64,000 bases of DNA, from positions 64,001-128,000 of IMG/VR virus record IMGVR_UViG_3300014208_000026; one strand, written 5' to 3'. This document shows, piece after piece, positions 20,788 to 37,820 of the stretch. Within the stretch, counting starts at the first letter, position 1, and every line of letters begins with the position of its first letter. The notes beneath the pieces are model-generated. The model searched no databases. It saw nothing but the letters and a program-made list of their open reading frames with translations, and had not been told where the DNA came from. A program made the position numbers and the translations under genes. The stretch is from a virus. Lineage: Duplodnaviria > Caudoviricetes.

Positions 20788-21822
20788 ATGCCTGCTTCAC
20801 CTGAAAAAAGATGGACTGAAGAACAAGACAGCACCCTGCGTGAAGGTTGGGCTGGTGGCGTTTCCGCAGAGGATCTCGCGTTGAAGTTGTTAAGAACGGA
20901 AACATCTATTCGCGGACGAGTTGCGATACTGGGAGTGCGGAGGAGTCCGGGATATATTTCTTCTATTCGTTCAAGTCTGAGTGTTGGTAAGCGTTTTAGT
21001 TGGACGGAAGAAGAGGAGAATATGCTACGTGTCTTTTACGAGGAGCAAGGGCTGTCTTACGAGGAGGTGGCTGTTAAATTACCTGTTGCTAAGACCTATA
21101 CTGCAATCCGGATGAAAGTACGGAAACTAGGGCTTCACCACACTAAAGAACAGTTTCTAGCAGTTTGTAGTCGTATGTCTATGGGGGACAGAAATGGCAT
21201 GTACGGAAAACCCGGGATTAATCTAGGGAAATCTCCTTCGGAAGAAACACGGAATAAGATAAGAGAGAACAAGCTGGAGGGTTTTGCTTCTGGGAGGCTA
21301 CATGGCATGGTTGGCCCTCTTAATCCTGCATTTGGTAAACCCAGCTCTATGCGCGGTAAACATCTTCCGGATTCTGCAAAGCAGACTCTTAGCCAGAAAG
21401 CCCGTGTCCGGTGGTTGGATAGGTCTGAGCAATATAAGTCAGACCATTTGTTAAAGATGCGTAAAGGCTGGATAACCTGGGCTATGAGAACGGAGGAAAA
21501 CAGAACTTGGATTGAGAAACTGGTAGCAATATGGCTGCAAGAAGAGGCTCTGGCATTTACGGAGCAGACACAGGTCGGTTTCTATATTGTGGATTTCCTA
21601 GTCGGTAATAAGGTGATCGAAACGCAAGGCGACTACTGGCATGCCAATCCTTCTGTTTACAGTCAGTTGGACTCCACGCAGAAATCAAATGTACGGAGAG
21701 ACAAGGCCAAAGCAACTTACCTGAAAAATCGAGGTTTCGGATTTCTGTCTTTGTGGGAGTTAGACCTGAAAAAGAATCCCGAGGGCTGTCGAAATCTACT
21801 ACGGGAGTTCTTAGCCTCATGA
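20788..21822 (+). mobile_element. Free-standing homing endonuclease (Myb/NUMOD3-like repeats plus Vsr/DUF559-like nuclease) inserted in cca
   Basis: WTEEQD/WTEEEE repeats; NGMYGK/NPAFGK..SEETR NUMOD3-like motifs; YIVDF..IETQGDYWHAN..RRDKAK..GFGFLSLWE. Confidence 0.8.
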
Positions 21823-23939: not shown

Positions 23940-26904
23940 CGCCCACAAGAGGGTCATAGGAGGGATACGTACAGCAGCTTTCTGCCACCTCGGCCCTCTC
24001 TATCATGGAACCAAGGATCCCGAAGGGCTCCTGGAAGCCCAGACCTTTGATTGGAGCCGGTTGCAGTCTCGGGATTCGGGTTTCTTCGGGAACGGCTTTT
24101 ACCTCGCAGACAGTCCGCAACATGCTCGATCCTATGGGGGGACGGTCTTGGAAGTGGCCCTGAAGCCCTCGGCCAAGATCCTGTGCGCCATGGAGCCTGG
24201 AGTCTTCTCTGGAATGACCCCCACGAAGTCTCCCTCTTACCAGGAGGAATTCGCTGTTTTCATGACCGGACGGATTGTGAAGCATCGGGGGGATATAGAA
24301 AAGGCCAAGAAAATCGTAGAGGGGGAGTACACCCCGGGAGGCACTTCTTTCGACTCCATTGGTTGGAAAAAAGATATCACAATGTGGGTACGGGACGAGA
24401 AGGTGGCCGATGCTATCAATTGGGGGTCTGAGACAATTGTCCTGAACCCCCAAGCTATCGCCAGCATCCGACGAATCCGGTACCGTAAGACTCAAGCAAG
24501 TGCGGCTGACGGCATCAAGACCGGCAAAGGCAAAGGGGTCGGTTTCTTCATCCCGCTCCCGTTAGATGAAGCCGCCAAGTTCCCCTCTCTCGGAGACCAG
24601 GATAAAAGCCCGAGCCACGTTACCTTTTTATACGTTGGTGACGTAACTCCCGAGGAGGAGCCAAAACTGCTGAGTGTCGCTCGCAACGTGTTCCGCTCTT
24701 TCGCCAGGGGTCCTGTGAGAGCCCATTCCCTGCCCGTGGAATACTTTGTCCATCCGGCCATGGGGCGTCGGGTAGCTGTCGTACCTTGGCAGTTCGACAA
24801 GGATCTGGCCGGACTCCGCTGGAAGCTGCGGGATGCTCTACAGGACGCGGGTTTCAAGGTAGAGGACAGTTTTCCTCTTGTATACCGTCCCCACACGACT
24901 CTCCGGTATTGTGAGAGCCTCCAGGAGGAGTACAAAGGCTCAGTGCCAGTTGCGGGCTGGTCTTTCGACGCGGTTGAGATTTGGGGCCTGCCATATTTGT
25001 ACCGGATTCCGTTTGGGGAAGGTTGTTCAGTGAGGGTTGCCGGAGCCCCCCTGTCCTTTGCTCCTGCGGAGGACAAGAGAGGCAAGCCCCTCTCCCCTGG
25101 GGACTATGTGCAGCTTCGAGGTCGGGACGGATGGGTGGCAATTAGCCCCAACGTCCAGGGGTTCTATTACCTCGACGAAGAAAATACGGGGATGGCACCT
25201 CAACTTGTTATCGTGACAACGGATTGGAAGGGGGCTGTTAAAACCTCTGAGGTTGTCAAGACGCAGACCGTCAGGATGTCCGCGTATAAAGATCCTCCCG
25301 AGGACGTGGCTCGGGTTCTGCAGACGCTTAGGGTAAAAGTCTCCCGTACTGCTCAGTGTGGGGGATTGGCTTCGAGAGTAGCCAGCCGATTCCTGGAGGC
25401 TTCCAAGAGTCTCCCCATGAAAGGGCGTCGTTACGGATTCTTCATCTACGGGGACAAGACCGGGGCCTGGGAGTTGGGAGATAGTGCTCGCTGGGGAGGG
25501 TTGGAAGACGGAGCGTGGCAGGCTATCCCGAGCTTCTCTTCGAAGAACGAGTGGCGCAACCTGTCTGTAGAGGGGGCTACTGAGCATCACCCTGGATTCT
25601 TGAAGGCTCTCAGGGAGATGGTTCGAGAGTATCCCGAAATGACAGATTGGTGGGTCCAGTTCGACGGGCCTTGGATTGAAGTACGGGACTTGGTAGGAAG
25701 CGGCTCCGTTTCTCCCAAGTTCAATTGGGAGTCCCTCAAGCTATACCACGGCACCAGCATGGCGGCTTGGGAGAAGATCCAAAAGCAAGGGCTCCTCCCT
25801 CGCAATCTGAGCGGGATGGGGCCTTCGTATGGGACGCTATCGCAGGCAGGGGAAGGGCATAAAGACGCTGTGTACCTCACGACCCAGATTGGCACTGCTA
25901 GAATGGCCGCCAGAGACGCGGCTCGCGTCACAAAGAGTAAGCCTATAGTTTTGCAGATAAGGGGGCTGGATGCGGAGTTCGTGGTTGCCGACGAGGATAG
26001 CCATTCGGCCAACCCTGAAGTGAGCCTCCAGACCTTGGGTTCTGTGGCTTACGTAGCCCCGATTCCTGCAAGTAGGGTGGAAATGTTCGAGTATTTAGTG
26101 GACAGCGGGTGGACTAAAACCGCTCGTTTCGATCCCGAACTGGAGGGGTTGGGCGGGTTGCTTCGGGGAGAACCGACCACTCTGTACCACGGGACCACAC
26201 GGCAGTTCAAGAAGTTCGACTTGTCCAAGTCCCGTACGGAGTTGGTGAATGATTTCTACGGGGCTGGCATTTTCCTGACTCCTTCTCAGAGTGTTGCTTG
26301 GGATTACGCCGAGGCCAATAGAAACATTGGATTACCGTCGTCGATTGTGCAGGAACTCAAGAGGAAGAATCCCGTTGCGGGGGATTTCTTGGAAGCTCTG
26401 GTCAAGCACGGGGATGCTGCTTGGGATATAAAGTTGCCTAGCGGGCGCACTTGGGCACAGTCCTTCGCCAGCGACGAGCTAGAGGCGGGGGTCGATCCGA
26501 ACAGCATCAGTGACATTGCGCAGTACGTCGAGGGCAGCAAGGTTCATCCGTTGGCCGACCAGACCGGTTTTGTTAATATCTTCAGTACCTCTACAGGAGC
26601 CCCTGAGTGGCTGTACGACCTGTTGGCAGAGGTGGGCCTGGACGACAAAAAGTACCGTCCCAAGGTCTACGCAGTATCTGTGAAGGTAGACAAGGTGTTG
26701 GTGACAGCCAAGGAGAGTGAGGCTAAGAAGGCCCACAGTCGGGGTTACGATGCGGTGATATTCCACGGGTCCAGGCTGGTGGGCGGAGTACCCGAGGTTG
26801 CAGTTTTCGACCCGAGCAAGGTTCGTATCCTGAATGTTCGTACGGGGTCCTTGGTTCAACGAGTTGCCTCCCGATACTGTGAAGGGGGTCTGAGTGGGAA
26901 GTAG
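23929..26904 (+). CDS. Polyvalent protein: three ADP-ribosyltransferase-fold domains (one Tpt1/KptA-like), a 2H phosphoesterase and an SH3-like domain
   Basis: LYHGT at ~23998, 25741 and 26182 with GFYLA, AVYLT and GIFLT strands; 2H motifs SHVT (24616) and PHTT (24892). Confidence 0.75.
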   Translation: MQSSAHKRVIGGIRTAAFCHLGPLYHGTKDPEGLLEAQTFDWSRLQSRDSGFFGNGFYLADSPQHARSYGGTVLEVALKPSAKILCAMEPGVFSGMTPTKSPSYQEEFAVFMTGRIVKHRGDIEKAKKIVEGEYTPGGTSFDSIGWKKDITMWVRDEKVADAINWGSETIVLNPQAIASIRRIRYRKTQASAADGIKTGKGKGVGFFIPLPLDEAAKFPSLGDQDKSPSHVTFLYVGDVTPEEEPKLLSVARNVFRSFARGPVRAHSLPVEYFVHPAMGRRVAVVPWQFDKDLAGLRWKLRDALQDAGFKVEDSFPLVYRPHTTLRYCESLQEEYKGSVPVAGWSFDAVEIWGLPYLYRIPFGEGCSVRVAGAPLSFAPAEDKRGKPLSPGDYVQLRGRDGWVAISPNVQGFYYLDEENTGMAPQLVIVTTDWKGAVKTSEVVKTQTVRMSAYKDPPEDVARVLQTLRVKVSRTAQCGGLASRVASRFLEASKSLPMKGRRYGFFIYGDKTGAWELGDSARWGGLEDGAWQAIPSFSSKNEWRNLSVEGATEHHPGFLKALREMVREYPEMTDWWVQFDGPWIEVRDLVGSGSVSPKFNWESLKLYHGTSMAAWEKIQKQGLLPRNLSGMGPSYGTLSQAGEGHKDAVYLTTQIGTARMAARDAARVTKSKPIVLQIRGLDAEFVVADEDSHSANPEVSLQTLGSVAYVAPIPASRVEMFEYLVDSGWTKTARFDPELEGLGGLLRGEPTTLYHGTTRQFKKFDLSKSRTELVNDFYGAGIFLTPSQSVAWDYAEANRNIGLPSSIVQELKRKNPVAGDFLEALVKHGDAAWDIKLPSGRTWAQSFASDELEAGVDPNSISDIAQYVEGSKVHPLADQTGFVNIFSTSTGAPEWLYDLLAEVGLDDKKYRPKVYAVSVKVDKVLVTAKESEAKKAHSRGYDAVIFHGSRLVGGVPEVAVFDPSKVRILNVRTGSLVQRVASRYCEGGLSGK

Positions 26905-28030
26905 AGACCTACAGGCTTCGTTGGTCTTATACCACGGCACCTCTGGAGGTTTTGGGGATCTGGACCCGGACAAGAGCGGTCTAGGGACACATTTCGGTAG
27001 TTACCGTGCGGCCACCCGGCGTTTGCGGGGGCTGAAAAACGTGCAGGGGCCGCATCCGGTTGAGGTCCGAAGGTACAAGATCCTTTCTTCGAACCCCCTG
27101 CTTCTGGATGACGTCGGGGCTTGGGACAGTCTGCCGGATGTCGAGCACGCTCTCATCAAGGTTGGGGTCATGCCCTTGGAAGAGCTTCCCAATAGCCGTC
27201 AGTTGAATGGGTCTGCTGCATGGGAACACCTTCGGGATTTGATTGAATCCGCAGGTTACGATTCCGTGGTCTACGCCAATCGGCTTGAGGACCGTGGTTC
27301 TCTGTCCTACATTGTCTGGGACCGTTCTATGGTGCAGAGACTCCCTGACGCCAAGATTCCCAAGCACCTGAAGACCGCTTCTGGCACGGTCCCCATTCTC
27401 GTCCTCCCAGCCGAAACAGTGAAGTACCGGAAAAAGTTTCCCGGATTCAAAGACACTCTGATCGTGGGCAAGTTCCTAGCGTCGGTCTCCCTATATCGGA
27501 TTTTCGACTTCGATGAGTTCCTCGGTTTGATGTACCGCTTTAACTCCGATATCAAAGGTGGTACCTTTGCGATTCCTGCTGAGAGAACTTTCGGGGCGTC
27601 CTGGAGCGGTAGTTTGCAGGATGCTTTGGACTTCGGGACTGGTTGGAAATCTCGGGGTAGATTAAAGGGGCAACTCTACATTGCAGAGATTGACGGGAAT
27701 GGCAAGACTTTCAGCCATCTGGCTCCCAACATCGATCCTATTTTTGACGGGTTTGCTCTCGATAATGCTTTTCAATCTAACATGCACGTTGATAGCTGTC
27801 GTGGTGAGTTGGGTTGCTCTGTAGTCCACGTTCGTCCCTCCAAGGTGAAGACGTGGTATAGGGTGGACGAGAGCGGGCACCCTGAGAAAGTTTCTGTCCA
27901 GGAGTTGCAGGCGGAATTCAAGGAATGGGAAGAGAACCGGAAGAAGGAGTACATGACGGCCTCTGCGGACAAAACCGCAGCGACGCTCACGAAAGCTTGG
28001 ATCATGTCTGTCCGGCGAGGTTGGAAGTAG
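26894..28030 (+). CDS. Polyvalent protein with two ADP-ribosyltransferase-like domains
   Basis: LYHGT..GTHFG..AGYDSVVY..E; after a KTAS linker, SLYR..ASWSGSLQDALDF. Confidence 0.6.
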   Translation: MGSRDLQASLVLYHGTSGGFGDLDPDKSGLGTHFGSYRAATRRLRGLKNVQGPHPVEVRRYKILSSNPLLLDDVGAWDSLPDVEHALIKVGVMPLEELPNSRQLNGSAAWEHLRDLIESAGYDSVVYANRLEDRGSLSYIVWDRSMVQRLPDAKIPKHLKTASGTVPILVLPAETVKYRKKFPGFKDTLIVGKFLASVSLYRIFDFDEFLGLMYRFNSDIKGGTFAIPAERTFGASWSGSLQDALDFGTGWKSRGRLKGQLYIAEIDGNGKTFSHLAPNIDPIFDGFALDNAFQSNMHVDSCRGELGCSVVHVRPSKVKTWYRVDESGHPEKVSVQELQAEFKEWEENRKKEYMTASADKTAATLTKAWIMSVRRGWK

Positions 28031-29323
28031 TTACGGGTAGCATAGACTTTTATCCAAGCTACACATTTCTTGGGTATCAGGGACTACATGCTCCTGACCG
28101 ATCTCCGCCCAATAAAATCCACGTCTATTGTCCAAAGATCGCCAGCCTTCCCCCAGAGGGGTTAGGTTCAGGCTAATATTCCGGGAGGCGTTCAAGTCAG
28201 CATTTGCGGCGAAGCCGCATTTCTTGCACTTGAACATCTCTCCTTTTCTATTAGCCTTCTGGACCCATCCACAACACGAACATCTCTGGCTCGTAAAAGC
28301 TGGGGGGACTTTAATGATCTGGACACCAGTGTCTTCACAAAGTCTACCCAGCTTACCAAAGATCTCCGTATATGTCCAACTCCTCATGGACTTGGACGTT
28401 CTCACGCCTAATCTAAGATTCTTGATCGCCTCGATCTTAAGTGTTTTTACTCCCCGTAGGTTTAGCTGGTTCAACGACCAGTTGATGTAGTTGGTCCTGT
28501 GGGCTTGAGCCCTCGCGAAAGCTTTAGACCCCTTCTTCTTATGGTTCATCTCAGCGATGATCTTGGGCAGGGTCCAACCATGCACGTCTTCCTGGGACTG
28601 AACCCCGTCGCTCGAAGAGAACACTTTCTTATAACCTATATCCACCCCAACTGTTGTTCCCTGAGATACGGGTTCGGGTTTGGGAATAGAAAATACACAC
28701 GTTACAGAGTTTGAGTTTAGTCTAAGCCCAGGTCTGATCTCACCTCTGGACTTCATCTCGTTAAAGTGCTTAGTTAGTTTGATCGGGAACACGATCTTTA
28801 GGGAGTGGTCCCAACCAGGAGGAGTACCTAAACAGGTTAGATTTACATAAGCATCGAACGAGGTCTCGGACTCCCAGTCGATCTTGACGAATCTTGAGTC
28901 CAGTTGGGGATTCATGTTCTTGAGATCCGGCTTGGACATTTTGGTCTTATCTATGACCTTCTTGAGCTTCTGGGCTTGTTTGGTCTTACCCTCAGCTAAA
29001 AGTTTAGCATAGACGAACTCACGCCTTTTCTGCTTTTCACGAGTTCCTCTCACGATCCCAGAAGCCTGTTTAGCTGCGGCTTGGACAGCACGAGCCGAGA
29101 GCCAAGTCTGGGTCGAGACTTGATCTGTAAAGTTTTTCGAAAACAACCTCTGGATCTCAGCGTCCTCTCCGAGAGTCCAGAGAGGGTCGACGAACAGAGC
29201 GGTTACTCGCCAGTACTCTTCAGTAAAGAGATCGATGAGATCTCGTTTTCCTGGGTTGGTGAATTTGAGGGACAGTTTAGAGGACCGGATCAGGGAGTAT
29301 TTGTCTTTCTTGGATCGAGCCAT
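28031..29323 (-). CDS. tnpB: TnpB-like RNA-guided endonuclease (IS200/IS605/IS607 superfamily), no tnpA
   Basis: RuvC-I VGVDIG, RuvC-II KIE, TSQRCSCCG..FKCKKCG zinc finger, NADLNAS RuvC-III. Confidence 0.88.
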   Translation of the reverse strand: MARSKKDKYSLIRSSKLSLKFTNPGKRDLIDLFTEEYWRVTALFVDPLWTLGEDAEIQRLFSKNFTDQVSTQTWLSARAVQAAAKQASGIVRGTREKQKRREFVYAKLLAEGKTKQAQKLKKVIDKTKMSKPDLKNMNPQLDSRFVKIDWESETSFDAYVNLTCLGTPPGWDHSLKIVFPIKLTKHFNEMKSRGEIRPGLRLNSNSVTCVFSIPKPEPVSQGTTVGVDIGYKKVFSSSDGVQSQEDVHGWTLPKIIAEMNHKKKGSKAFARAQAHRTNYINWSLNQLNLRGVKTLKIEAIKNLRLGVRTSKSMRSWTYTEIFGKLGRLCEDTGVQIIKVPPAFTSQRCSCCGWVQKANRKGEMFKCKKCGFAANADLNASRNISLNLTPLGEGWRSLDNRRGFYWAEIGQEHVVPDTQEMCSLDKSLCYP

Positions 29324-29360
29324 CGGGTCCTGGACTCCTTCAGTTCCTTCGGAAAACCGG

Positions 29361-29389
29361 TTGACAAAAAATCCATCCCTGTCTATAGT
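29361..29389 (+). promoter_or_regulatory. Sigma70-type promoter
   Basis: TTGACA (29361-66), 17-nt spacer, TATAGT (29384-89). Confidence 0.55.
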
Positions 29390-29404
29390 ACCCTATAGAC
29401 AGGG
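29377..29404. repeat. Perfect 12-bp inverted repeat (possible IS end hairpin or operator)
   Basis: CCCTGTCTATAG-TACC-CTATAGACAGGG. Confidence 0.85.
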
Positions 29405-29412
29405 TATTGGAA

Positions 29413-29459
29413 CACGATACTTTAGTAAACTCACGATACTCTGGTAAACCAGAGTAAAC
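29413..29459 (+). repeat. Short direct repeats
   Basis: CACGATACTTTAGTAAAC / CACGATACTCTGGTAAAC / partial AGAGTAAAC. Confidence 0.7.
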
Positions 29460-29490
29460 TGCCTACACTTCTTTCAAACCCGCTAAGTTC

Positions 29491-29511
29491 CCTATAGCCT
29501 CGCTATGGTTA
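29491..29511 (+). promoter_or_regulatory. Putative late promoter
   Basis: CCTATAG-N10-GTTA upstream of 29536. Confidence 0.35.
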
Positions 29512-29535
29512 GGAGCCTATCTAAGGGACTGCCTT

Positions 29536-29925
29536 ATGCCCGACCGGAATCTTACAACCCGAATTGCCCAAAGGCACTTGCAGGCTCGCAAGTTTGTCTT
29601 GACTCCGCAGGTAGTCGCCGAGTTCCGCAAAGAATTCCTGATGTTGATGAAGAACCTGAAGCGAGTTCAGGATTACGAAGGGGCGATGGCCCTGAAGGAG
29701 GCTCTCCGTACCTGGAACCAGGACATGGATTTCTTTTTCGAGCAAATCCGTGATTTCCTCGAAGATCTGGTTCGAACCGAGAAAGACTCCGGTACAGGTA
29801 AATGGGCGGAGCATTACCTCAAGGAGTTAGGTCCGAGTTTCGGGGCTTTTCTGCATTGGGTTCCACATCTTCCGGTGACTAGGGTGGGGACGGTAACTTT
29901 TGATTTTGATTTCGATTTTAGATAG
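29536..29925 (+). CDS. N-terminal fragment of the giant polyvalent gene, cut by the IS607-like insertion
   Basis: Starts with a RIAQRHLQA tag; its last codons (VTFDFDFDFR*) lie in T-rich IS left-end-like sequence; joins in frame to the 31131 ORF at CGG. Confidence 0.6.
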   Translation: MPDRNLTTRIAQRHLQARKFVLTPQVVAEFRKEFLMLMKNLKRVQDYEGAMALKEALRTWNQDMDFFFEQIRDFLEDLVRTEKDSGTGKWAEHYLKELGPSFGAFLHWVPHLPVTRVGTVTFDFDFDFR

Positions 29926-31143
29926 GAAATTTCATATGATCTTGGCACACCGCATACAGCTTGACCCGACTTTCAAACAGGTCCGGTATTTTGTCCAAGC
30001 CAGCGGTACGCACAGATTCGTTTCTAACTGGGCTTTGGCTGAGTGGAATCGGCTTTACGAAGCCGGAGAGAAGCCAGACGGAATGAAGTTGAGGAAATCT
30101 TTCAACTCCCGTTACCCCAAGGAGTTCCCTTGGATCTCGGAACTCCACAGGGACTGTCATTCACAGCCTTTTAACGATCTCCAAGTGGCATTCTCTAGGT
30201 ATTTCAAAGGCGAGGCCAAGCATCCTGTATTCAAGAAAAAGGGAGAGCACGATTCTTTCTATGTAGCAAATGACATTATCTCTTTGGATGAGTCAAGAGT
30301 TCGAATTCCACGTTTGGGTTGGGTTCGGATGACGGAGCCCCTCCGGTTCGCGGGGAAAATTATGAGTGCCCGAGTCACGAGAACCGCTGACAAGTGGTTT
30401 ATTTCTGTCCAGGTGGACATAGGAGATCCCGCTCAAAGTGGTCAGTGGGAGCGAATTTCTGACGGGACAGTCGGGGTAGACCTGGGAATCAAGCATGCAG
30501 TGGTCACCTCCGACAATGAGGTATTCGACGGCCCTAAGCCTCTGAAGAAGAACTTGGAGAAGCTTAAACGTTTGCAGCGACAACACGCCCGTAAGCAGAA
30601 GGGCTCCAAGAACAGGCACAAACTCACGATGCGGCTGGCTCGGCTCCACGCCAAGATCGCGAACATCCGGAAGGACTTTCTACACAAAGTGACGACCAAG
30701 ATCTGTCGTGAGAACCAAACGATAGTTCTTGAGGATCTGAACGTAGCGGGGATGATCAAGAATCATAAGCTAGCTCGGGCGATCATGGATATTGGGTTTG
30801 GAGAGTTCAGGAGGCAGGTTGAGTACAAGTCCGGCCTCTACGGGAACACCCTAATTCTGGCGGACCGGTTCTATCCTTCTTCTAAGTTGTGTTCAAAGTG
30901 TGGACACAAAAAAGAGGATCTGACTCTAAAGGATCGGACGTATTGTTGTGAAGCTTGTGGTGCTGAGATCGACCGGGATCTCAATGCGGCTTTGAATTTG
31001 CGTAATCTAAGTACCCTCGGCTTGAGGGGAGCTTCCGGAGGCGATCTACCTCCGGTAAAAGCCTGTGGACCGAAAGAGCCTCGGAGCGTCGGGAAGAAGC
31101 AGGAACCGAAACGTGTGAAGGGATAAATCCATGCACAAGTCGG
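29894..31143 (+). mobile_element. Non-autonomous IS607-like element (tnpB only); boundaries inferred
   Basis: CGG at both junctions (ACGG 29890-93 or CCGG 29872-75; TCGG 31140-43); T-rich repeats at the left end; omegaRNA-like hairpin at the right end. Confidence 0.6.
29936..31126 (+). CDS. tnpB: TnpB RNA-guided endonuclease
   Basis: MILAHRIQLDP HTH_OrfB-like start, VGVDLG, IVLEDLNV, PSSKLCSKCG..CEACG..DRDLNAA; start at ATG 29936. Confidence 0.92.
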   Translation: MILAHRIQLDPTFKQVRYFVQASGTHRFVSNWALAEWNRLYEAGEKPDGMKLRKSFNSRYPKEFPWISELHRDCHSQPFNDLQVAFSRYFKGEAKHPVFKKKGEHDSFYVANDIISLDESRVRIPRLGWVRMTEPLRFAGKIMSARVTRTADKWFISVQVDIGDPAQSGQWERISDGTVGVDLGIKHAVVTSDNEVFDGPKPLKKNLEKLKRLQRQHARKQKGSKNRHKLTMRLARLHAKIANIRKDFLHKVTTKICRENQTIVLEDLNVAGMIKNHKLARAIMDIGFGEFRRQVEYKSGLYGNTLILADRFYPSSKLCSKCGHKKEDLTLKDRTYCCEACGAEIDRDLNAALNLRNLSTLGLRGASGGDLPPVKACGPKEPRSVGKKQEPKRVKG

Positions 31144-34100
31144 ATGAGCAGTATCAGTACGCCGATTTTCTGAAGGAACTGCCAACCTGGGAGAACCGAA
31201 TCCGCGCCAAGTCCTCGACCGCTTGGAAGTATCTCGCCGAGTTGGCGGAGTGGGCTGTACGGGATGATTTCGGCGGAGGTGGCGGGAAGCCCGTAGTCCT
31301 ACGGAGGAGAGAGAAAGAGAACGTCCGGTTGGAGGGGTTTGCAACCCAACTCGTAGGATACGAGGACGATGAAGAATGGCACAGAGATAATCTTGCACGC
31401 CTGAAGGCGGGTCTTGCCCTGTACCGGAAACGGGCTCAGGCGGTCTATCCTTGGCTGCTGAAGTACCAACTCCCCCTGGTCGTGAACTTCGAAGAGTCTT
31501 CTCGGGAGGACTCCGCCGCTAGTTACGAACGCTCTTTCATTCGGATTGGGGTTTGGGCTGTCTCCGACCTCCCCATGGATTTTGTTCATGCCCTAGCTCA
31601 CGAGATGGGGCACCACATGTTCAAGACCCTGGTGACAGCCCAAGGTCGGGAAGCATGGACTGCTTTCATCAAGGGGTCTTACAAGGCGCTTGACCTCCGG
31701 GACGTGCTAGCAAAGTCACGTCCAGATGAAACTCTGTTCCGGTTGGACGATAGGATTCAGCGGGAGGATCCCATCCTCCACATTCAGCTACAGACCCTTA
31801 TCTATGACCCGCGGTACAAAGAGTACGATTTGATCAGCACTACGAGCATCAAGGAGTACCTGGACGCGGGGAAAGACCCGATCGTCCAGGTTCCGGCCCA
31901 TGCCATTTCGGGCTACGCAGGGAAGAACCAAGAGGAAGCGTTCTGCGAGGCGTTCGGGAACCTTGTGGGCTATGGTTCTCGTTCCGTACTGCTTGAGGTT
32001 CGTGGGTTCCTTCAGTCTCTGTTGCCAGGGCTCAAGACGGCTTCAAAGACGGCCGGATTGGCGGATGATCTCGAAAACAGGGTCCAGGTTCTAATCAAGG
32101 ACTATGAAGCAGCCCTGTCCGATCCCAAGGTCCGTAACAACTATCAGGCCATGGTTTCAATCGGGCAGGCTTTTAAGGATTGGTTCCTGTCGAAGTTCCA
32201 AACAGGGTTGGCGAGGACTCCAGTAGGGGGTAAGACGGTCAAGAAGGCCGTTGATATGTTCCTGTGGATGGCTACGGCTGCTGTACACCAGGACGGGAAG
32301 ACCAAGCGTTTGCGTGAGGGCTGGGACGAGTTCAAGCCTTTCGTTCCGGAACTGCTGAGGCTCTTTTCTCCCGAGGGACACCTTTCGGTCGAGACCGAGA
32401 TCCAAGGAATCCATGCCGCGTACCTGAATCCAAAGGGACTGGCCACGCCCACTTTCAAGAAGTACGTGAAGGCCCTGGACGTCCTGTTTGGTTCCCTGCA
32501 GGGCTGGAGAAAGAGGGCTCTCGTTGGAAACTTGAAAGTCGCCCTGGCTGGGGCGGATAGTTTCCGCGGGACCGCCTCTGGCAAGTACGTTACGGCCGAG
32601 GATACCCTGTACGTGCGAGCTACACCCAACGTTCTGAAAAGAACTCCCGGGAAGTACGCCTCTCCCGACTACATTCTCATCCACGAGTTGGGGCACCGGT
32701 ACGAAAAGAAGGTTGGGGCCAGTGTGGATTTCGACAGGGAAGCATGGCGCACGACTAGGTATAGCCTCACAGAGAGCATGTCCGGCCACTCTGAAGCTTT
32801 TGCAGAACTGTTTGCCCTCGGGCATTTCGGTATCACCGAGTTGTCAGGCAAAGATTTCGGGAGCACTCTGGAGAAGTTCGAGAAGCTCATGACTACGGGA
32901 AAGATGGCGTCCGTTACAGACAAGCTGTTCCGTCTGTACGAACGGCGGGGCGAGCTTCATTCGCAGTGCGGAATGCCGGACGGGGATGAGAGGTTCGTTT
33001 GTCCTGAGTGCGGCAAAGTGATTCAAGCAAAGTGCCCGGGTCCGCCCGAAGGAAAAACGGATAGGGCGGTGGTTTGCCGTGACTGTGAGCAGAACCTCAG
33101 GGGCACGACCGGACAGGTAAAAGTCGGAGGGATCATTGAGGCCCCTCCCAAGTTGGTGGAAGAGATCACGAAGTGGGCGTTCCACGTCACGGCGGAGAGC
33201 CGGATTCAGAATATCGATGAGACCCTAGAGTACCAGTTCAGGAACACCCCTCCGGAGAAACGCTCGAAAGGGCATAACGATCTGATAGCAAAAGAACGAC
33301 AGGAACAAGATTTCCTCAAAAAGTACCTCTCTAGCGAATATGCCGGTTGGGGGACCAAGCACCATTTCCGTGTGGCCGAGTACCTAGCAGGATGGAAATA
33401 CTTAGGACTTGGAAAGAAATCGGGTGGGTCTAGGGAGTACAACGACCAGACAACAATCGAAGTCATCCTAGTCCGTTATAACTACAAAGGCTACAATAAT
33501 GGCAGGGGTGGTTCCTGGGACAAAGATGCAAAAACTCTTCGGGTGTTCCTGCCCTATAGTTTGAAGCTTCAGCAGGACATCAGCGGTCTGGAGAATATGG
33601 TTGAGCATGAGTGCCGACATTTTGCTCAGTCCTACCTCCAAGATGCCATAGGGGTTGCGGAGGCAGGGTTTCCCCCCAGGAAGATTCGGACACCACAGTA
33701 CCAGCAGAACACCTCTCAACCTGGGCATAGGGGAGATCCCTCTCTCGAAGATCACAACCTCGATGATGTTGAGTTTTTCACGGACCTGGGGAGTGCGATC
33801 CGGGAGTTTAAGTTAGGGGTTTCTTTGAACAAGATTCCCAAGAAATCGTGGGATGAGGCTTTGGACGTATTCACGGGCGTAAAGGATAGGGTGTCGGGGG
33901 CTGCTGTTCTTGAGTCTGTCTTTTTCTATCACCTCAAGCACAATGAGAAGGCTCGTGGTAAATACCTCCGTGCGATCAAAGAAATCCGAAAAGCCATGCA
34001 GTACAAAGGTGGTAGGGCTGTCCTGGCTTCTACCGCTTCTCCTTTGCTCCAACTGAACGCCTCTGCCAGCAACCTGGAAACTCTCCTGGCCCAGTTGATT

Positions 34101-37100
34101 GAAGGAGCCCAGGACGCCAAGGCACTCGAAACTTCAATCGGGTTTAACCTTCGTGATCTCCCCAAAATGCTGGCCGAGGCAGTCCACAGCGACGATGATT
34201 ATCACAACGGGGAGTCTGTCCTCCAGCACACCAAGGAGGTTTTATCGGACCTGGAAGAGCATCTCGAAGGGCTCGACGCCATCCAGAAGCAAGTGTTCCG
34301 GCTGGTGGCGGTGCTCCATGACCTGGGTAAGCCCGTGACCCACGAGTTCGTGGAAGGGCACCACAGGTTCCAGGGACACGCTGATGTATCTTTGGAGATT
34401 GCCAAGGCCCTTCTCCAATCGTTCGAGGCGGAAGCCTCCGATCTGGTTAAGCAGATTCTGTTGCTCGTGAAGCACCACGATACCTTCCTCACCCTCATCA
34501 ACAACCGCGGGAACGCCACTTCCCCCGCCTACTTGAAGAAGTTCATGGCTAAGGAGATCGGGACGAAAGAGATCCTGTTGGACCTCGCTCGGTTTGCAAA
34601 GGCGGACTCCGCCCGAAGCAAGACCCTGGACAAAACCCTCAGCGATATCGCGGTTGTGCTGGGGGACGTAGACCGGTGGTTCGTCTTACAAGCGGAGAGG
34701 GAAGCCCAGAGGATTGAGCAAGAAGCACTGGCCTCAAAGAATCTTGTCGAGAGAAAGGACGAGATTCTGACCCTCTTGGAGTCTGCTGTGCCAGGGTCTT
34801 CGCAGCACTACCCCAATATCCAGGCTATCAAACGCGCTCTGGGGATGGCTAAGCAGTTTAAGGCCATTCGAGAGCTGGAGGACGTTTTGGGGCATAGGAA
34901 GACCGCAGCAGAGAGAGTCGCCTCCAGGTTCTTGAAACAGGCTACGAAGACGCCCGCCGAGAAAGAGGATGAGGCTGTTTCCGATCTGGTCAAGCCGGAC
35001 CCTAAATTAAAACCCCCCCGCTATGACCTTCGTAAGAGGCGGTTGGATACGGCGGACCCTGACCTGGATACCAGCAAAGAGGACAAGGACCTCTCTTTGA
35101 ACTATAAGAGGGTGGCTTTCGAGTGGTACACGGGACTCCCTGCGCTAGCCTCCCCTGCGAGGATTGCTTCCGCTTGGGTCTCAGCCGGAGTTGGAAAGAC
35201 CAAGCCCAAACAGACCGGTAAGAGCCAGAAGCGTTTGGAGAAGAAACAACGCAAGAACCCTTTGGCTTTGAAACCCGTCCCAGGATCTCCGCCTCCGCCT
35301 GCTCCTGGTTCGGCTAAGAAGACGGAAGAGCCGGAGCACAAGGCCGGAGACGTGTGGGAGACGGAAAAGGGCTGGACGGCCAAGAATCCAGACGGTAAGG
35401 CCCACGTCTTTACGGAAGAGGACGGTAAGGATCGGGCCCAGGCTTACGCCAAGGGCAAGGAGTACGAGGAAGAGGAAGATAAGAAGCCCGGATCCGAAGA
35501 GATGAAGCCCCCTGGAACGCTCAGCGCTAAAACCTGGGCTAAGCTGAGCCCTCTTCTAAAGAAGGACACCATCACAGAGGAAGATTTCCGGACAGCGTTG
35601 GGTACGGATAATATCTGGGGAACCATCAATCAACTAGATGGTCATATGACGGAGGATGCTGATGGTAACTGGCACCCTAAAACTCCGAAAGAATCTGAGA
35701 AGCCTAAACCTGAAAGCGAAACCAAGGAGCCGGATGAAGTAGCGCCGGAGGACAAGGCCCTCGATGATTTAGACAAGGATCAAGACGACAAGGATCTCGA
35801 TGATCTTGACAAGGAAGAACCCTCTGTCGAGGATTGGGTTCGAGGGATGAAGGATAAGGCCGGGTTCAAAGAGACGGTTAAGAGTTTGAAGAAGGTGTTT
35901 GATTCTGCAAAAGGTGAACTGTCAGGGGCAGAGGACTCCCTGTCTGTAGATAACGATATGGTCAGGGTCGTTCTTGAAGGTTTGGCTGTCCCTAAAGGGG
36001 TGTTTAAGACGGTTGGTGACATTCGTGATTTTGTGCAATCTGAGAAGACGCACGCCAAGCTGGTAGGAAAGCCGAAGGAGCCTGAGAAGAAACAAGAGCC
36101 TGAGAAGAAACAAGAGCCTGAGAAGAAACAAGAGCCTGAGAAACAGCTCCTCCCAGACACTAAGACGGAACAAGATAAGGGGAAGGGCGCTCCCGATACC
36201 GGTAACCCTGACAAGACCGAGCAAGATAAGGGGAAAGGTGCTCCCGCTTCCACTAACCCCAATGAGGATCCGGACCTCGATTCGTTGGACGATGAGCATT
36301 CCAAGAAAAGTAAGATAGGGGATTGGGTTGACTGGATGCCCAATGAGAAAGAGTTTGTCAAAGCAGTGGCTGGTCTCCATAAGGCTTTCGACCCGAAAGA
36401 GGGTCCGTTGGCTGCTTTGTCTACGGACACCTCCACGGAGGATCCTACTGTAGAAAAGGCTCTCGACGAGATCGGTGTTCCCAAGGGGACTTTCAAGACG
36501 GTCGGGGACGTAGCAGAGTTTCTCCAGAGTGAGAAATCCTATGCTGCCCGAGCCGGAAAGGCTCGCGCTAAGGCCGAAAAACACCTTTCGAAACTGGATG
36601 CTTTGGATAAGAAGAATATTGTCCTGAAGGGGCGAATGTTCCTAGAAGAGCAGGCGGAAGCTGGAAAAACAGACGAAGATCCGTTTAACGAAAGTGAGTA
36701 TGCTTTCGAGTTGGGGTTGCCTGACTCTGCATTCAAGACCTTGGGGCAGGTTAAACGTTTCATCGACGAACTCAGCGCCAAGGAAGGCGGCGAGCCTACA
36801 GAGGCTCAGAAAGAGAACCGTAAACGCCAGAAACAAAGAGACAAAGAGGTTAAGCAGAAAGCGTGGGACAGTCAGGTGAAGCAGCAAGAGTCTATCGGGA
36901 AAATCCTGAAGGGGATCGTTCCTGGCCCACGGTCCAGCGAAGACATGCATGCTCTGTCCAACCAGACTTTCGAGGCCGCCCATGCCCTGAACACAGAGGG
37001 CCGAACCGCTATGCTGTCGGAACTCAACAGCGAAGCCGCCCGTTACGACAAAGACTCTCCGGAGCACAAGCAGGTACAGAGGGCGATTGACGGTGTGTGT

Positions 37101-37820
37101 CTAGCACAGATTCTGAAGAACGAGGACGTCTCAGGGAGGCCCGAACCTTCGGAGTCTTTCATCCAACTCGCCAAAGTCCTTCATAGGAACGGTCATGCAG
37201 ACACTCTTCTGAATACAGTCGAGGACTTCACCTCTGCCGACAGTCGGAAGTACATTCACGACGCGATGGCAAATATGAGCGAAGCCGAGTTCGTCAAGTT
37301 CGCCGGAGGACACGACGGTCCGATGAAGGAACTTATCTCGACCATGACCGACCCGATGCTTTCAGAGGAACAGCGGGGCATGGCTCGCGAGTTCATGCAG
37401 GATGCAGCCCTTACCAACATGACTCTAGGGCATGCCCTAGTAGTTACCCACCTCAGGGGCCAGGAAGAAGGGGGCCAAGAAAGCCAAAGCAAAAAGAAGG
37501 CGCCTCAGTCTCAAGAGCAGAGGAGAGAAGCCGTCGCTAAGGTTGTCAACGCGGCCATGCAAGACCCTGCGTACACGCATTCTCGGGATCAGTGGCTTAC
37601 CTGCACCAAGACCGGTAAGTTCTTCGATGAGTGCAACGAACTCGCAGGCGAGACAAAACTTCGTCATGCAGCAGTTCTTCTGAAACATGCAGAAAAAGAG
37701 TTCGGTCCTATGTCTGACACGAATCCTGCCAAAGCCTTGATAGATAAGGCAATTAAGGACCACGATCCCACCGTTTTGGACATGGATACAGAGCCCGGCC
37801 TGATCAAACCCGCCGCCTAG
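31131..37820 (+). CDS. Giant polyvalent protein (2229 aa): three HExxH zincin-like domains, zinc finger, HD phosphohydrolase, low-complexity and repeated C-terminal domains
   Basis: HEMGH (31599), HELGH (32682), HECRH (33606); CPEC..CRDC; H..H..LHDLGK..HADVS..HHD; RVASRFL at 34914. Confidence 0.85.
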   Translation: MHKSDEQYQYADFLKELPTWENRIRAKSSTAWKYLAELAEWAVRDDFGGGGGKPVVLRRREKENVRLEGFATQLVGYEDDEEWHRDNLARLKAGLALYRKRAQAVYPWLLKYQLPLVVNFEESSREDSAASYERSFIRIGVWAVSDLPMDFVHALAHEMGHHMFKTLVTAQGREAWTAFIKGSYKALDLRDVLAKSRPDETLFRLDDRIQREDPILHIQLQTLIYDPRYKEYDLISTTSIKEYLDAGKDPIVQVPAHAISGYAGKNQEEAFCEAFGNLVGYGSRSVLLEVRGFLQSLLPGLKTASKTAGLADDLENRVQVLIKDYEAALSDPKVRNNYQAMVSIGQAFKDWFLSKFQTGLARTPVGGKTVKKAVDMFLWMATAAVHQDGKTKRLREGWDEFKPFVPELLRLFSPEGHLSVETEIQGIHAAYLNPKGLATPTFKKYVKALDVLFGSLQGWRKRALVGNLKVALAGADSFRGTASGKYVTAEDTLYVRATPNVLKRTPGKYASPDYILIHELGHRYEKKVGASVDFDREAWRTTRYSLTESMSGHSEAFAELFALGHFGITELSGKDFGSTLEKFEKLMTTGKMASVTDKLFRLYERRGELHSQCGMPDGDERFVCPECGKVIQAKCPGPPEGKTDRAVVCRDCEQNLRGTTGQVKVGGIIEAPPKLVEEITKWAFHVTAESRIQNIDETLEYQFRNTPPEKRSKGHNDLIAKERQEQDFLKKYLSSEYAGWGTKHHFRVAEYLAGWKYLGLGKKSGGSREYNDQTTIEVILVRYNYKGYNNGRGGSWDKDAKTLRVFLPYSLKLQQDISGLENMVEHECRHFAQSYLQDAIGVAEAGFPPRKIRTPQYQQNTSQPGHRGDPSLEDHNLDDVEFFTDLGSAIREFKLGVSLNKIPKKSWDEALDVFTGVKDRVSGAAVLESVFFYHLKHNEKARGKYLRAIKEIRKAMQYKGGRAVLASTASPLLQLNASASNLETLLAQLIEGAQDAKALETSIGFNLRDLPKMLAEAVHSDDDYHNGESVLQHTKEVLSDLEEHLEGLDAIQKQVFRLVAVLHDLGKPVTHEFVEGHHRFQGHADVSLEIAKALLQSFEAEASDLVKQILLLVKHHDTFLTLINNRGNATSPAYLKKFMAKEIGTKEILLDLARFAKADSARSKTLDKTLSDIAVVLGDVDRWFVLQAEREAQRIEQEALASKNLVERKDEILTLLESAVPGSSQHYPNIQAIKRALGMAKQFKAIRELEDVLGHRKTAAERVASRFLKQATKTPAEKEDEAVSDLVKPDPKLKPPRYDLRKRRLDTADPDLDTSKEDKDLSLNYKRVAFEWYTGLPALASPARIASAWVSAGVGKTKPKQTGKSQKRLEKKQRKNPLALKPVPGSPPPPAPGSAKKTEEPEHKAGDVWETEKGWTAKNPDGKAHVFTEEDGKDRAQAYAKGKEYEEEEDKKPGSEEMKPPGTLSAKTWAKLSPLLKKDTITEEDFRTALGTDNIWGTINQLDGHMTEDADGNWHPKTPKESEKPKPESETKEPDEVAPEDKALDDLDKDQDDKDLDDLDKEEPSVEDWVRGMKDKAGFKETVKSLKKVFDSAKGELSGAEDSLSVDNDMVRVVLEGLAVPKGVFKTVGDIRDFVQSEKTHAKLVGKPKEPEKKQEPEKKQEPEKKQEPEKQLLPDTKTEQDKGKGAPDTGNPDKTEQDKGKGAPASTNPNEDPDLDSLDDEHSKKSKIGDWVDWMPNEKEFVKAVAGLHKAFDPKEGPLAALSTDTSTEDPTVEKALDEIGVPKGTFKTVGDVAEFLQSEKSYAARAGKARAKAEKHLSKLDALDKKNIVLKGRMFLEEQAEAGKTDEDPFNESEYAFELGLPDSAFKTLGQVKRFIDELSAKEGGEPTEAQKENRKRQKQRDKEVKQKAWDSQVKQQESIGKILKGIVPGPRSSEDMHALSNQTFEAAHALNTEGRTAMLSELNSEAARYDKDSPEHKQVQRAIDGVCLAQILKNEDVSGRPEPSESFIQLAKVLHRNGHADTLLNTVEDFTSADSRKYIHDAMANMSEAEFVKFAGGHDGPMKELISTMTDPMLSEEQRGMAREFMQDAALTNMTLGHALVVTHLRGQEEGGQESQSKKKAPQSQEQRREAVAKVVNAAMQDPAYTHSRDQWLTCTKTGKFFDECNELAGETKLRHAAVLLKHAEKEFGPMSDTNPAKALIDKAIKDHDPTVLDMDTEPGLIKPAA
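36078..36142 (+). repeat. 18-bp coding tandem repeat (EPEKKQ x3 plus a partial copy)
   Basis: GAGCCTGAGAAGAAACAA occurs three times, then a partial copy. Confidence 0.9.

What the first reader, a model, noticed from the sequence alone, without database searches (positions are those of the whole stretch)
29536..31160. IS607-like tnpB element inserted in frame in a giant gene, supplying its own stop and restart codons
Seen: removing 29894-31143 (ACGG|TAAC ... AGTCGG|ATGAG) fuses ORF 29536 to ORF 31131 in frame, giving ...VTRVGT-D-EQYQYADFL, about 2340 aa. The alternative left junction CCGG at 29875 is also in frame. The element's left end provides TAG (29923), and its right-end hairpin (31113-31136) contains ATG 31131 with AAGGGA 7 nt upstream, just after the TnpB stop. 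Known: IS607 elements recombine at a GG core, and IStrons hide insertions by group I splicing. No ribozyme-sized sequence is present here. Inference: harm is avoided by translational restart rather than splicing.
Basis: partly seen in the sequence, partly recalled or inferred. Interest (0 to 1): 0.72.

Follow-up and report, generated by a model that had tools for sequence, protein, structure and literature searches.

The report
TnpB transposon remnant splits phage gene
A 1.25-kb transposon remnant carrying only an RNA-guided nuclease gene (tnpB) sits inside a giant gene of a huge phage; its very short ends happen to carry a stop, a ribosome-binding site and a start, so the gene may still be made as two pieces, as is known for phage genes split by homing endonucleases.

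Summary
Bases 29894-31143 are a 1250-bp IS607-family element with an intact tnpB, no tnpA and no intron. It lies inside a gene that was once continuous. Joining 29536-29893 to 31144 onward gives a 2344-aa protein. Its first 423 residues align as one block with 12 relatives that have no insertion.

The break falls in a variable loop of a conserved ~420-aa HExxH (zincin-like) module. Family comparison supports the right end at ...GTCGG|. The left end is uncertain by up to 18 nt.

"Inserted in frame" is a misnomer. The element is 3n+2 long, and removing any insertion restores the frame.

The restart idea is plausible but untested:
- One strong promoter (29361-29389) precedes three tightly packed ORFs, with gaps of 10 and 4 nt.
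- ATG 31131 has the phage's usual AAGGGA ribosome-binding site.
- A complex model places the 129-aa piece on the 2229-aa piece (score 0.88, best control 0.00).
- A second gene in this phage is split by an endonuclease gene.

The scan had already noted this stretch in an overlapping window, and other tnpB genes in this genome. I read it as a new variant of the phage "genes-in-pieces" arrangement. Interest is moderate.

The parts
29361..29389 (+). Sigma-70-type promoter (TTGACA, 17-nt spacer, TATAGT) ahead of the N piece. It overlaps a 12-bp-arm palindrome at 29377-29404.
   Evidence: 11 of 12 consensus matches. It is the only + strand promoter-like site in 27800-32000.
29536..29925 (+). N piece of the split gene (129 aa). 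Residues 1-119 are native. Residues 120-129 (VTFDFDFDFR) and the TAG stop are encoded by the element's left end. The ribosome-binding site AAGGGA lies 9 nt before the ATG.
   Evidence: A profile of the N piece finds 229 proteins, nearly all with the rest of the module attached.
29894..31143 (+). IS607-family element carrying tnpB only (1250 bp). CGG is shared between the left flank (29891-93) and the right end (31141-43). The left boundary is uncertain within 29876-29894.
29894..29935 (+). Left end, 42 nt. It starts TAAC after GG, carries GATTT repeats and the in-frame TAG at 29923-25, and has a weak ribosome-binding site (AGGA) for tnpB.
   Evidence: Relatives L040 and L047 start GG|TAAGC and L017 starts GG|GTAAG, the latter only about 10 nt before its tnpB ATG.
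29936..31126 (+). tnpB, 396 aa, intact. The RuvC motifs GVDLG, LEDLN and DRDLNAA and the CxxC...CxxC zinc finger are all present.
31016..31143 (+). Predicted omegaRNA scaffold overlapping the 3' end of tnpB. It has the stem CCGGAGG/CCTCCGG, the long-range helix CCTGT/GCAGG, a terminal hairpin, and ends in CGG.
   Evidence: all conserved blocks are shared with 9 relatives, and 10 of 14 consensus pairs show compensatory changes.
31113..31136 (+). Terminal hairpin of the right end. It holds the ribosome-binding site AAGGGA (31118-23), the tnpB stop TAA (31124-26) and the restart ATG (31131-33).
31144..31159 (+). Predicted omegaRNA guide, equal to the target in an element-free allele. It corresponds to codons 5-10 of the C piece. 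This is inferred from position only.
   Evidence: Inferred from the established TnpB mechanism (10.1101/2023.11.20.567912). The sequence is unique in the window.
31131..37820 (+). C piece of the split gene (2229 aa). Its first four codons (MHKS) and the first base of codon 5 come from the element. It contains the HExxH core of the split module, further HExxH motifs and an HD domain.

Best explanation
A non-autonomous IS607-family element inserted at a GG in the DNA that codes a variable surface loop of a ~420-aa HExxH (zincin-like) module. That module forms the N-terminus of a giant phage protein. The element consists of tnpB, its omegaRNA, and ends of only 42 and 17 nt outside the ORF.

The gene now exists as a gene in pieces. 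One promoter (29361-29389) drives three tightly packed cistrons:
- The N piece stops at a TAG inside the left end.
- tnpB starts 10 nt later.
- tnpB stops at a TAA in the loop of the right-end hairpin.
- The C piece restarts 4 nt later at an ATG that has the phage's usual AAGGGA ribosome-binding site.

The two polypeptides are proposed to reassemble without a covalent link, because the N piece (three helices) packs on the first helix and strand of the C piece. TnpB with its omegaRNA is expected to cut element-free alleles in co-infecting relatives. The element would then behave like a free-standing homing endonuclease gene.

Shown: the insertion, the family, the conserved RNA, and the position of the signals. 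Inferred: coupled translation, reassembly of the pieces, and homing.
For: Insertion into one gene:
- The joined protein aligns as a single segment across the junction with 12 homologues.
- The junction lies in a variable-length linker.
- It corresponds to P0004 residues 116/117, in loop 105-117 between two helices of an AlphaFold model with pLDDT 83.
- A profile of the N piece finds 229 proteins, nearly all at least 400 aa long.
- The five short hits that could be looked up are explained by an in-frame stop (L098), frameshifts (L099, L100, L101) or a contig end (L102), not by a two-gene layout.

Family:
- Pfam domains of TnpB are present.
- TnpA of the MerR-HTH plus resolvase type lies upstream in 8 relatives, and a resolvase-only protein in a ninth.

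Right end:
- The family pattern is GAAGCAGGAA, then a hairpin, then ...AGAACGG|flank. The window has the same pattern and ends in ...AAGTCGG|.
- The conserved RNA helices show compensatory changes.

Expression signals:
- AAGGGA or AGGGAG at 6-10 nt is the usual ribosome-binding site of this phage's genes, including the N piece itself.
- There is a single strong promoter and no + strand promoter inside the element.

Assembly of the pieces: the complex model gives a score of 0.88 in all three runs against a best control of 0.00. The partner's pLDDT is at least 74 and the runs agree in at least 72% of contacts. In the tool's calibration this mark was reached by 58 of 80 solved complexes and 2 of 110 mismatched pairs; these counts hold only roughly here, because my own alignments were used. 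The interface covers C-piece residues 5-61 and N-piece residues 17-118. As these are two halves of one domain, a pass is expected from intradomain contacts. No close solved structure was found.

Precedent in the same phage: a CCA-type nucleotidyltransferase gene is split exactly at the point that is continuous in P0017 (residue 440). The splitting ORF is an endonuclease-like gene that abuts the stop of the N piece.
Against: - There are no expression, proteomic or population data.
- The insertion could be recent and harmful, with both ORFs still intact only because no time has passed.
- The outward ATG and ribosome-binding site are absent from related right ends, so they may be fortuitous.
- The ribosome-binding site and ATG lie inside a hairpin and inside the omegaRNA scaffold. 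TnpB binding or omegaRNA processing would compete with translation of the C piece.
- The fold energies are not better than those of shuffled sequence (z -0.4 and -0.6).
- The left boundary is not fixed.
Confidence: 0.55

Rival explanations
1. This is plain insertional inactivation. The element landed recently in a dispensable accessory gene. The N piece is a useless remnant, and the C piece is either not made or is made without its N-terminal subdomain. The stop and the start are coincidences.
For: - Any AT-rich left end meets a stop quickly; here it comes after 10 codons.
- An ATG near the right end has a one-in-three chance of being in frame.
- The outward signals are not conserved in relatives.
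- Relatives shuffle this module freely among proteins of 420 to 2600 aa, which suggests an accessory role.
- There is only one copy and no population data.
Against: - Both pieces are intact ORFs, including 2229 codons without a stop.
- The restart ATG has the phage's own type of ribosome-binding site at normal spacing, only 4 nt after the tnpB stop.
- The split lies in a variable loop, where a cut is least harmful.
- The pieces are modelled to bind (score 0.88, best control 0.00; mark reached by 58 of 80 solved complexes and 2 of 110 mismatched pairs).
- The same phage keeps another split gene.
Confidence: 0.3
2. The gene is restored at the DNA level. A TnpA supplied in trans by a host or co-resident IS607 excises the element without a scar in part of the population, and those genomes supply the intact protein. 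TnpB-guided cutting then re-installs the element.
For: IS607 TnpA excises without a scar at a GG core, and TnpB restores the element by cutting the empty site (10.1101/2023.11.20.567912). CGG is present at both junctions. Many relatives carrying tnpB only coexist with full copies in the same genome.
Against: No tnpA was seen next to this element, and only one other relative of this TnpB was detected in the 257-kb record. The ends are far shorter than those of full relatives (42 nt on the left; 7 nt after the hairpin against 13-24 nt in relatives), so TnpA-binding sites may be lost. No empty allele was found.
Confidence: 0.08
3. The element is removed at the RNA level, either by IStron-like self-splicing or by another splicing or bypass route that restores one continuous protein.
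For: IS607-family IStrons do exactly this.
Against: Only 42 nt precede tnpB and 17 nt follow it. No group I or group II intron, nor any other Rfam family, matches the region. The conserved RNA at the 3' end is the omegaRNA type shared with relatives that lack introns.
Confidence: 0.03
4. This is an assembly artefact: a transposon from host DNA was wrongly joined into the phage contig.
For: The record is a metagenome assembly estimated at 49% complete.
Against: Both junctions are base-precise. Removing the element restores a reading frame and a conserved alignment, which a chimeric join would not do. GC3 of tnpB (0.59) is close to that of the phage genes (0.63).
Confidence: 0.02

Closest known systems
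Genes-in-pieces made by free-standing homing endonuclease genes in phages (Aeh1 nrdA split by mobE; T4 topoisomerase genes 39/60 with mobA). The examples are recalled from knowledge; the review is PMC2988022, listed.
   Same: A selfish nuclease gene sits inside a conserved phage gene. Both halves survive as separate ORFs with their own stop and start. The function is thought to be kept by assembly of the two polypeptides, and no splicing is involved. A second case of this kind lies in this same window.
   Different: Here the nuclease is an RNA-guided TnpB with an omegaRNA, derived from a serine-recombinase transposon, and not a protein-guided GIY-YIG or HNH enzyme. The restart signals lie inside the guide-RNA scaffold. 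Activity of the split protein has not been shown.
IS607-family transposons and their derivatives that carry tnpB only
   Same: The TnpB domains match. The closest relatives pair with a MerR-HTH serine recombinase TnpA. There is a GG core at both junctions, no terminal inverted repeats and no target duplication. A conserved omegaRNA overlaps the 3' end of tnpB.
   Different: There is no tnpA. The ends are unusually short: 42 nt on the left, and only 7 nt after the last hairpin where relatives have 13-24 nt. The element sits in a huge-phage gene as a translationally packed cistron.
IStrons (IS607 or IS605 elements with a group I intron; 10.1101/2023.11.20.567912)
   Same: The problem is the same: a TnpB transposon inside a coding gene whose cost must be reduced. 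A similar conflict is predicted, because the guide-RNA scaffold overlaps the signals needed to restore host gene expression.
   Different: There is no intron. The proposed rescue is at the level of translation and protein assembly, and gives two polypeptides rather than one.
Inteins and split inteins ('fractured genes', PMC2677866)
   Same: A mobile element interrupts a conserved protein at a tolerated site.
   Different: The element is not translated in frame with the host protein, and Pfam finds no intein domain in the pieces or in TnpB.

Membership tests
IS607 family (tnpB-only derivative) | TnpB with HTH, OrfB_IS605 (RuvC) and zinc-finger TNB domains and an intact D-E-D triad | tested here: met
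   One search gives Pfam E-values of 1e-9, 1e-28 and 1e-21. The motifs GVDLG, LEDLN and DRDLNAA and two CxxC pairs were read. The DRD motif is shared with 72 relatives.
IS607 family (tnpB-only derivative) | Serine-recombinase TnpA (MerR-type HTH plus resolvase domain) upstream of tnpB | tested here: not met
   There is no ORF between the left end and tnpB (42 nt). The feature is met in 8 of the 9 relatives tested; the ninth has a resolvase domain only. The window copy is therefore a non-autonomous derivative of that family.
IS607 family (tnpB-only derivative) | Same core dinucleotide (GG) at the left flank and at the right end; no inverted terminal repeats; no target duplication | tested here: met
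   CGG occurs at 29891-93 and at 31141-43. No terminal inverted or direct repeats were found apart from this. The GG requirement is from 10.1101/2023.11.20.567912.
IS607 family (tnpB-only derivative) | OmegaRNA scaffold overlapping the 3' end of tnpB and ending at the right end | tested here: met
   The conserved blocks and helices are shared with 9 relatives, and 10 of 14 pairs show compensatory changes. No RNA data were available, so expression and the RNA ends are not tested.
IS607 family (tnpB-only derivative) | Mobility: several copies, or an empty site | tested here: not met
   There is a single copy in the 257-kb record. No empty site was found in viral or metagenome contigs.
IStron | Group I intron at the 5' end of the element | tested here: not met
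   The left end is 42 nt long, and there is no Rfam match at E <= 1 apart from a chance antisense hit.
Phage gene in pieces (split by a free-standing nuclease gene) | The two flanking ORFs are collinear halves of a protein that is continuous in relatives | tested here: met
   The split lies in loop 105-117 of the P0004 model.
Phage gene in pieces (split by a free-standing nuclease gene) | Each half has its own translation signals | tested here: met
   The stop TAG is at 29923. The ribosome-binding site AAGGGA lies 7 nt before ATG 31131, which matches the phage's usual ribosome-binding site. This is sequence-level evidence only.
Phage gene in pieces (split by a free-standing nuclease gene) | The halves assemble into an active protein | not testable with these tools
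   Only a model is available: score 0.88 against a best control of 0.00, partner pLDDT at least 74, and runs agreeing in at least 72% of contacts. The mark was reached by 58 of 80 solved complexes and 2 of 110 mismatched pairs. This is expected for two halves of one domain.
Phage gene in pieces (split by a free-standing nuclease gene) | The nuclease cuts the uninterrupted allele and homes into it | not tested
   The guide (31144-31159) and the TAM (left flank ...GGGGACGG) are inferred from position only.
Intein | In-frame insertion with Hint/splicing motifs | tested here: not met
   The element length is 3n+2 and stops separate the ORFs. Pfam finds only TnpB domains.

The most novel reading that the evidence does not exclude
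In huge phages, tnpB-only remnants of IS607 may have become RNA-guided counterparts of free-standing homing endonuclease genes. Their ends would be trimmed to a few dozen bases that double as a stop, a ribosome-binding site and a start. The interrupted gene would then be expressed by coupled translation as two self-assembling pieces. This would be a third way of hiding a TnpB insertion, beside intron splicing (IStrons) and scarless DNA excision. It carries a built-in conflict, because the restart signals lie inside the omegaRNA scaffold.
Probability: 0.2. Interest if true: 0.7.

Novelty: new variant of a known kind. Interest (0 to 1): 0.5.

Why it matters
TnpB elements are the ancestors of Cas12, and how they limit the cost they impose on their hosts is an open question. 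Splicing by IStrons is the only mitigation documented in the papers I read. A TnpB element that leaves a phage gene working as two coupled pieces would link two fields: RNA-guided transposon nucleases and phage homing endonucleases. It would also give a compact natural case where a guide-RNA scaffold and a translation start site overlap. For annotators there is a practical point: the 129-aa and 2229-aa ORFs should be treated as one split gene. If the insertion is only a recent knockout, the finding is ordinary.

Tried and rejected
- An exact empty-junction pattern in viral contigs gave no match.
- Relatives of the N piece were not found in viral contigs or metagenome contigs, nor by word-indexed search among longer proteins. 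They appeared only when the C piece or a profile was used.
- The phage database has no near relative of the region; it gave only short TnpB matches at about 71% identity.
- An alternative right end at ...GAGCAG| (31151), suggested by the Ktedonobacter and Massilia type of end, was rejected. No AG-flanked left end gives an open frame, and the window's RNA is of the 'GCCTGTGGA...AAGCAGGAA...CGG' type, whose ends stop at CGG.
- I looked for independent two-gene forms of the module among short profile hits. L098 has one in-frame TAG, L099, L100 and L101 have frameshifts, and L102 is a 952-bp contig. Three other short hits were not on record. None carries a mobile element.
- I tested whether other tnpB-only copies in phage contigs (L007, L008, L009, L011) also split genes. 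PHROGs gave no usable hits for their flanks, so this remains undecided.
- The Foldseek PDB search of the module model found only weak zincin peptidase matches (E at least 0.025). Pfam was likewise below threshold.
- Single-sequence fold energies of the right end are no better than those of shuffled sequence.
- Composition gives no clear sign of foreign origin.


Full report
**What is there.** The window is bases 64001-128000 of a 257-kb IMG/VR virus record estimated at 49% complete, so it comes from a huge phage. Three ORFs lie head to tail on the + strand:
- 29536-29925, 129 aa (P0001)
- 29936-31126, 396 aa (P0003)
- 31131-37820, 2229 aa (P0002)

P0003 is a complete TnpB. It has the HTH_OrfB_IS605, OrfB_IS605 and Cas12f1-like TNB domains. 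The RuvC motifs GVDLG, LEDLN and DRDLNAA and two CxxC pairs are all present. P0002 has one Pfam hit, an HD domain.

**Are the flanks one gene?** Yes.
- Two related huge-phage contigs hold a P0001-like stretch and a P0002-start-like stretch in one ORF, with no insertion (L002, 423 aa; L003, 666 aa).
- Larger relatives of 1300-2650 aa were found with the C piece.
- I joined 29536-29893 to 31144 onward, which gives 2344 aa. Its N-terminus gives one uninterrupted BLASTP segment across the junction with 12 homologues, for example residues 16-423 against P0006 1333-1749 (E 7e-103) and against P0007 477-899 (E 9e-99).
- The unit is a conserved module of about 420 aa with an invariant AHEMGHH motif. 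Pfam and Foldseek matches are weak and all to zincin-type metallopeptidases.
- The junction falls in a linker whose length varies by up to about 90 residues among relatives. The joined sequence has the short form, like P0004, with no gap.
- In an AlphaFold model of P0004 (pLDDT 83), the site is residue 116/117, in loop 105-117 between helix 84-104 and helix 118-158.
- A profile of the N piece searched against 1.84 billion representative proteins finds 229 proteins, nearly all at least 400 aa long.
- Of the eight short hits I tried to trace, five were on record. They were explained by an in-frame TAG, by frameshifts, or by a contig end, and none held a mobile element. Three were not on record.

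**What the element is.** The closest TnpB relatives are 48-56% identical and come from bacteria and viral contigs. Eight of the nine tested have a protein of about 210 aa with a MerR-type HTH and a resolvase domain directly upstream; the ninth has a resolvase domain only. This is the IS607 arrangement. The window copy has no tnpA. Derivatives carrying tnpB only are common among the relatives too.

**The right end.**
- In multi-copy relatives, the sequence shared between copies ends at a fixed point.
- In the sub-type to which the window belongs, the order is: a stem, then GCCTGTGGA, a variable hairpin, GAAGCAGGAA, a second hairpin, and ...AGAACGG followed by flank.
- The window has every block and ends ...CACAAGTCGG|ATGAGC at 31143. 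Its closest relative L016 is nearly superimposable.
- RNAalifold pairs CCTGT with GCAGG and finds compensatory changes in 10 of 14 pairs. For example, CCTAT pairs with GTAGG in L016 and L050.
- This is a conserved structured RNA at the expected place for an omegaRNA.
- An alternative end at 31151, modelled on another sub-type, was rejected. It allows no open reading frame after removal.

**The left end.** It is less certain. ACGG|TAAC at 29893/29894 shares CGG with the right end. It also resembles GG|TAAGC in L040 and L047 and GG|GTAAG in L017, the last only about 10 nt before that tnpB ATG. Element starts at 29876, 29885 or 29888 are also GG-flanked and in frame. These alternatives change at most six linker residues.

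**On 'in frame'.** The element is 1250 nt long (3n+2), and the two pieces are in different frames. Removal restores the frame simply because this is an insertion. It is not a special property, and one GG in three would give an open frame. No intron is present: 42 nt precede tnpB, 17 nt follow it, and nothing in Rfam matches.

**Expression layout.**
- A near-consensus promoter (TTGACA, 17-nt spacer, TATAGT; 11 of 12 matches) lies at 29361-29389. It is the only + strand promoter-like site in 27800-32000.
- The N piece stops at TAG 29923-25, which is 10 codons into the left end. The tnpB ATG follows after 10 nt.
- tnpB stops at TAA 31124-26, and the C piece starts at ATG 31131, 4 nt later.
- Seven nt before that ATG is AAGGGA. 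Genes of this phage typically carry AAGGGA, AGGGAG or AAGGAG at 6-10 nt, and the N piece itself has CTAAGGGAC.
- The ribosome-binding site, the tnpB stop and the ATG all lie in the last hairpin of the right end. Ribosomes finishing tnpB would open the hairpin, which fits coupled re-initiation. This step is inferred.
- Related right ends do not carry an outward ribosome-binding site and ATG. These signals therefore belong to this copy. The tail after the hairpin is also shorter here: 7 nt against 13-24 nt in relatives.

**Can two pieces work?** The complex model places the 129-aa piece on the first 330 residues of the C piece. The details are as follows:
- The score was 0.88 in all three runs, and the best of three controls scored 0.00.
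- The partner's pLDDT is at least 74, and the runs agree in at least 72% of contacts.
- In the tool's calibration the mark was reached by 58 of 80 solved complexes and 2 of 110 mismatched pairs. These counts hold only roughly here, because my own alignments were used.
- The interface joins N-piece residues 17-118 to C-piece residues 5-61. These are the helix and strand that follow the split loop.

As these are halves of one folded unit, a pass is expected. It shows a large complementary surface, not that the pieces bind in a cell.

The same phage holds a second split gene. ORF 19807-20787 (PolyA_pol head domain) aligns to P0017 residues 192-440, and ORF 21753-23939 aligns to P0017 residues 440-596. 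Between them lies an endonuclease-like ORF (20788-21822; GcrA-like plus REase_MTES_1575/DUF559 matches) whose ATG abuts the preceding TAG.

**Mechanism proposed.** From published work on IS605 and IS607, TnpB with its omegaRNA cuts the element-free site, and repair copies the element back (10.1101/2023.11.20.567912; review PMC13565253). Here the guide would be 31144-31159, and the TAM would lie in ...GGGGACGG. The occupied site has ...AAGTCGG before the same 16 nt, so the TAM must reach at least the fourth base upstream (A against T). None of this was tested.

A consequence follows. The C piece's ribosome-binding site and ATG are part of the omegaRNA scaffold, and its codons 5-10 are the guide. 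Making omegaRNA and translating the C piece from one transcript should therefore compete, much as splicing and omegaRNA compete in IStrons.

**Weighing.**
- The insertion and its family are close to certain.
- My best reading is that the gene still functions as two pieces through coupled translation (0.55).
- A recent knockout of a dispensable accessory gene is the main rival (0.3).
- DNA-level excision (0.08), RNA splicing (0.03) and misassembly (0.02) are minor rivals.

**Limits.** Nothing close was found in viral or metagenome contigs or in the phage database.

**Novelty.** Phage genes split by homing endonuclease genes are known, and so are IS607 derivatives that carry tnpB only. I found no report of a TnpB element doing this with restart signals inside its guide-RNA scaffold. 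I class the finding as a new variant of a known kind.

Noticed in passing
window 28031-29323 (- strand): A second, very divergent TnpB-like gene (430 aa) lies only 212 nt upstream of the N piece. It has a Cas12f1-like TNB domain, and the D, E and D motifs GVDIG, KIEAIK and ADLNAS are visible. Its stop abuts the stop of ORF 26894-28030. A search of the genome with P0003 did not detect it.
   Followed up: partly
window 19807-23939: A CCA-type nucleotidyltransferase gene is in pieces. ORF 19807-20787 aligns to P0017 residues 192-440 and ORF 21753-23939 aligns to P0017 residues 440-596. They are separated by an endonuclease-like ORF (20788-21822) whose ATG directly follows the TAG of the N piece.
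   Followed up: partly
window 29377-29404: A perfect 12-bp-arm palindrome (CCCTGTCTATAG/CTATAGACAGGG, 4-nt loop) overlaps the -10 box of the promoter at 29361-29389. It could be an operator, or a terminator for the minus-strand tnpB-like gene.
   Followed up: no
window 29913-29928 and 31163-31178: A 16-nt imperfect direct repeat (12 of 16 bases; CGATTTT..A.AGGAA) has a spacing of exactly 1250 nt, which is the element's length. As a result, the peptide encoded by the left end (VTFDFDFDF) and the native linker (DEQYQYADF) are both 9 residues long and both end in DF. This may be chance, or a trace of how the element entered. It is unexplained.
   Followed up: no
L098 4-1905; L099 and L100 792-2184; L101 2155-6146: Several metagenomic relatives of the module are broken near the helix after the split site: L098 by a single in-frame TAG, and L099, L100 and L101 by frameshifts. 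These could be sequencing errors, real pseudogenes, or in L098 a recoded TAG.
   Followed up: partly
window 18920-20026 versus P0007 and P0008: ORF 18920-20026 is homologous to the segment that directly precedes the HExxH module in P0007 (residues 167-476; the module starts at 477), and to P0008 residues 189-548. The same domains are therefore arranged differently among these giant phage proteins.
   Followed up: no
L097 (own genome, 192791-193957, - strand): A third TnpB (41% identical to P0003; the ORF is 474 aa) lies elsewhere in the same phage record. It appears to sit between genes, not inside one.
   Followed up: partly
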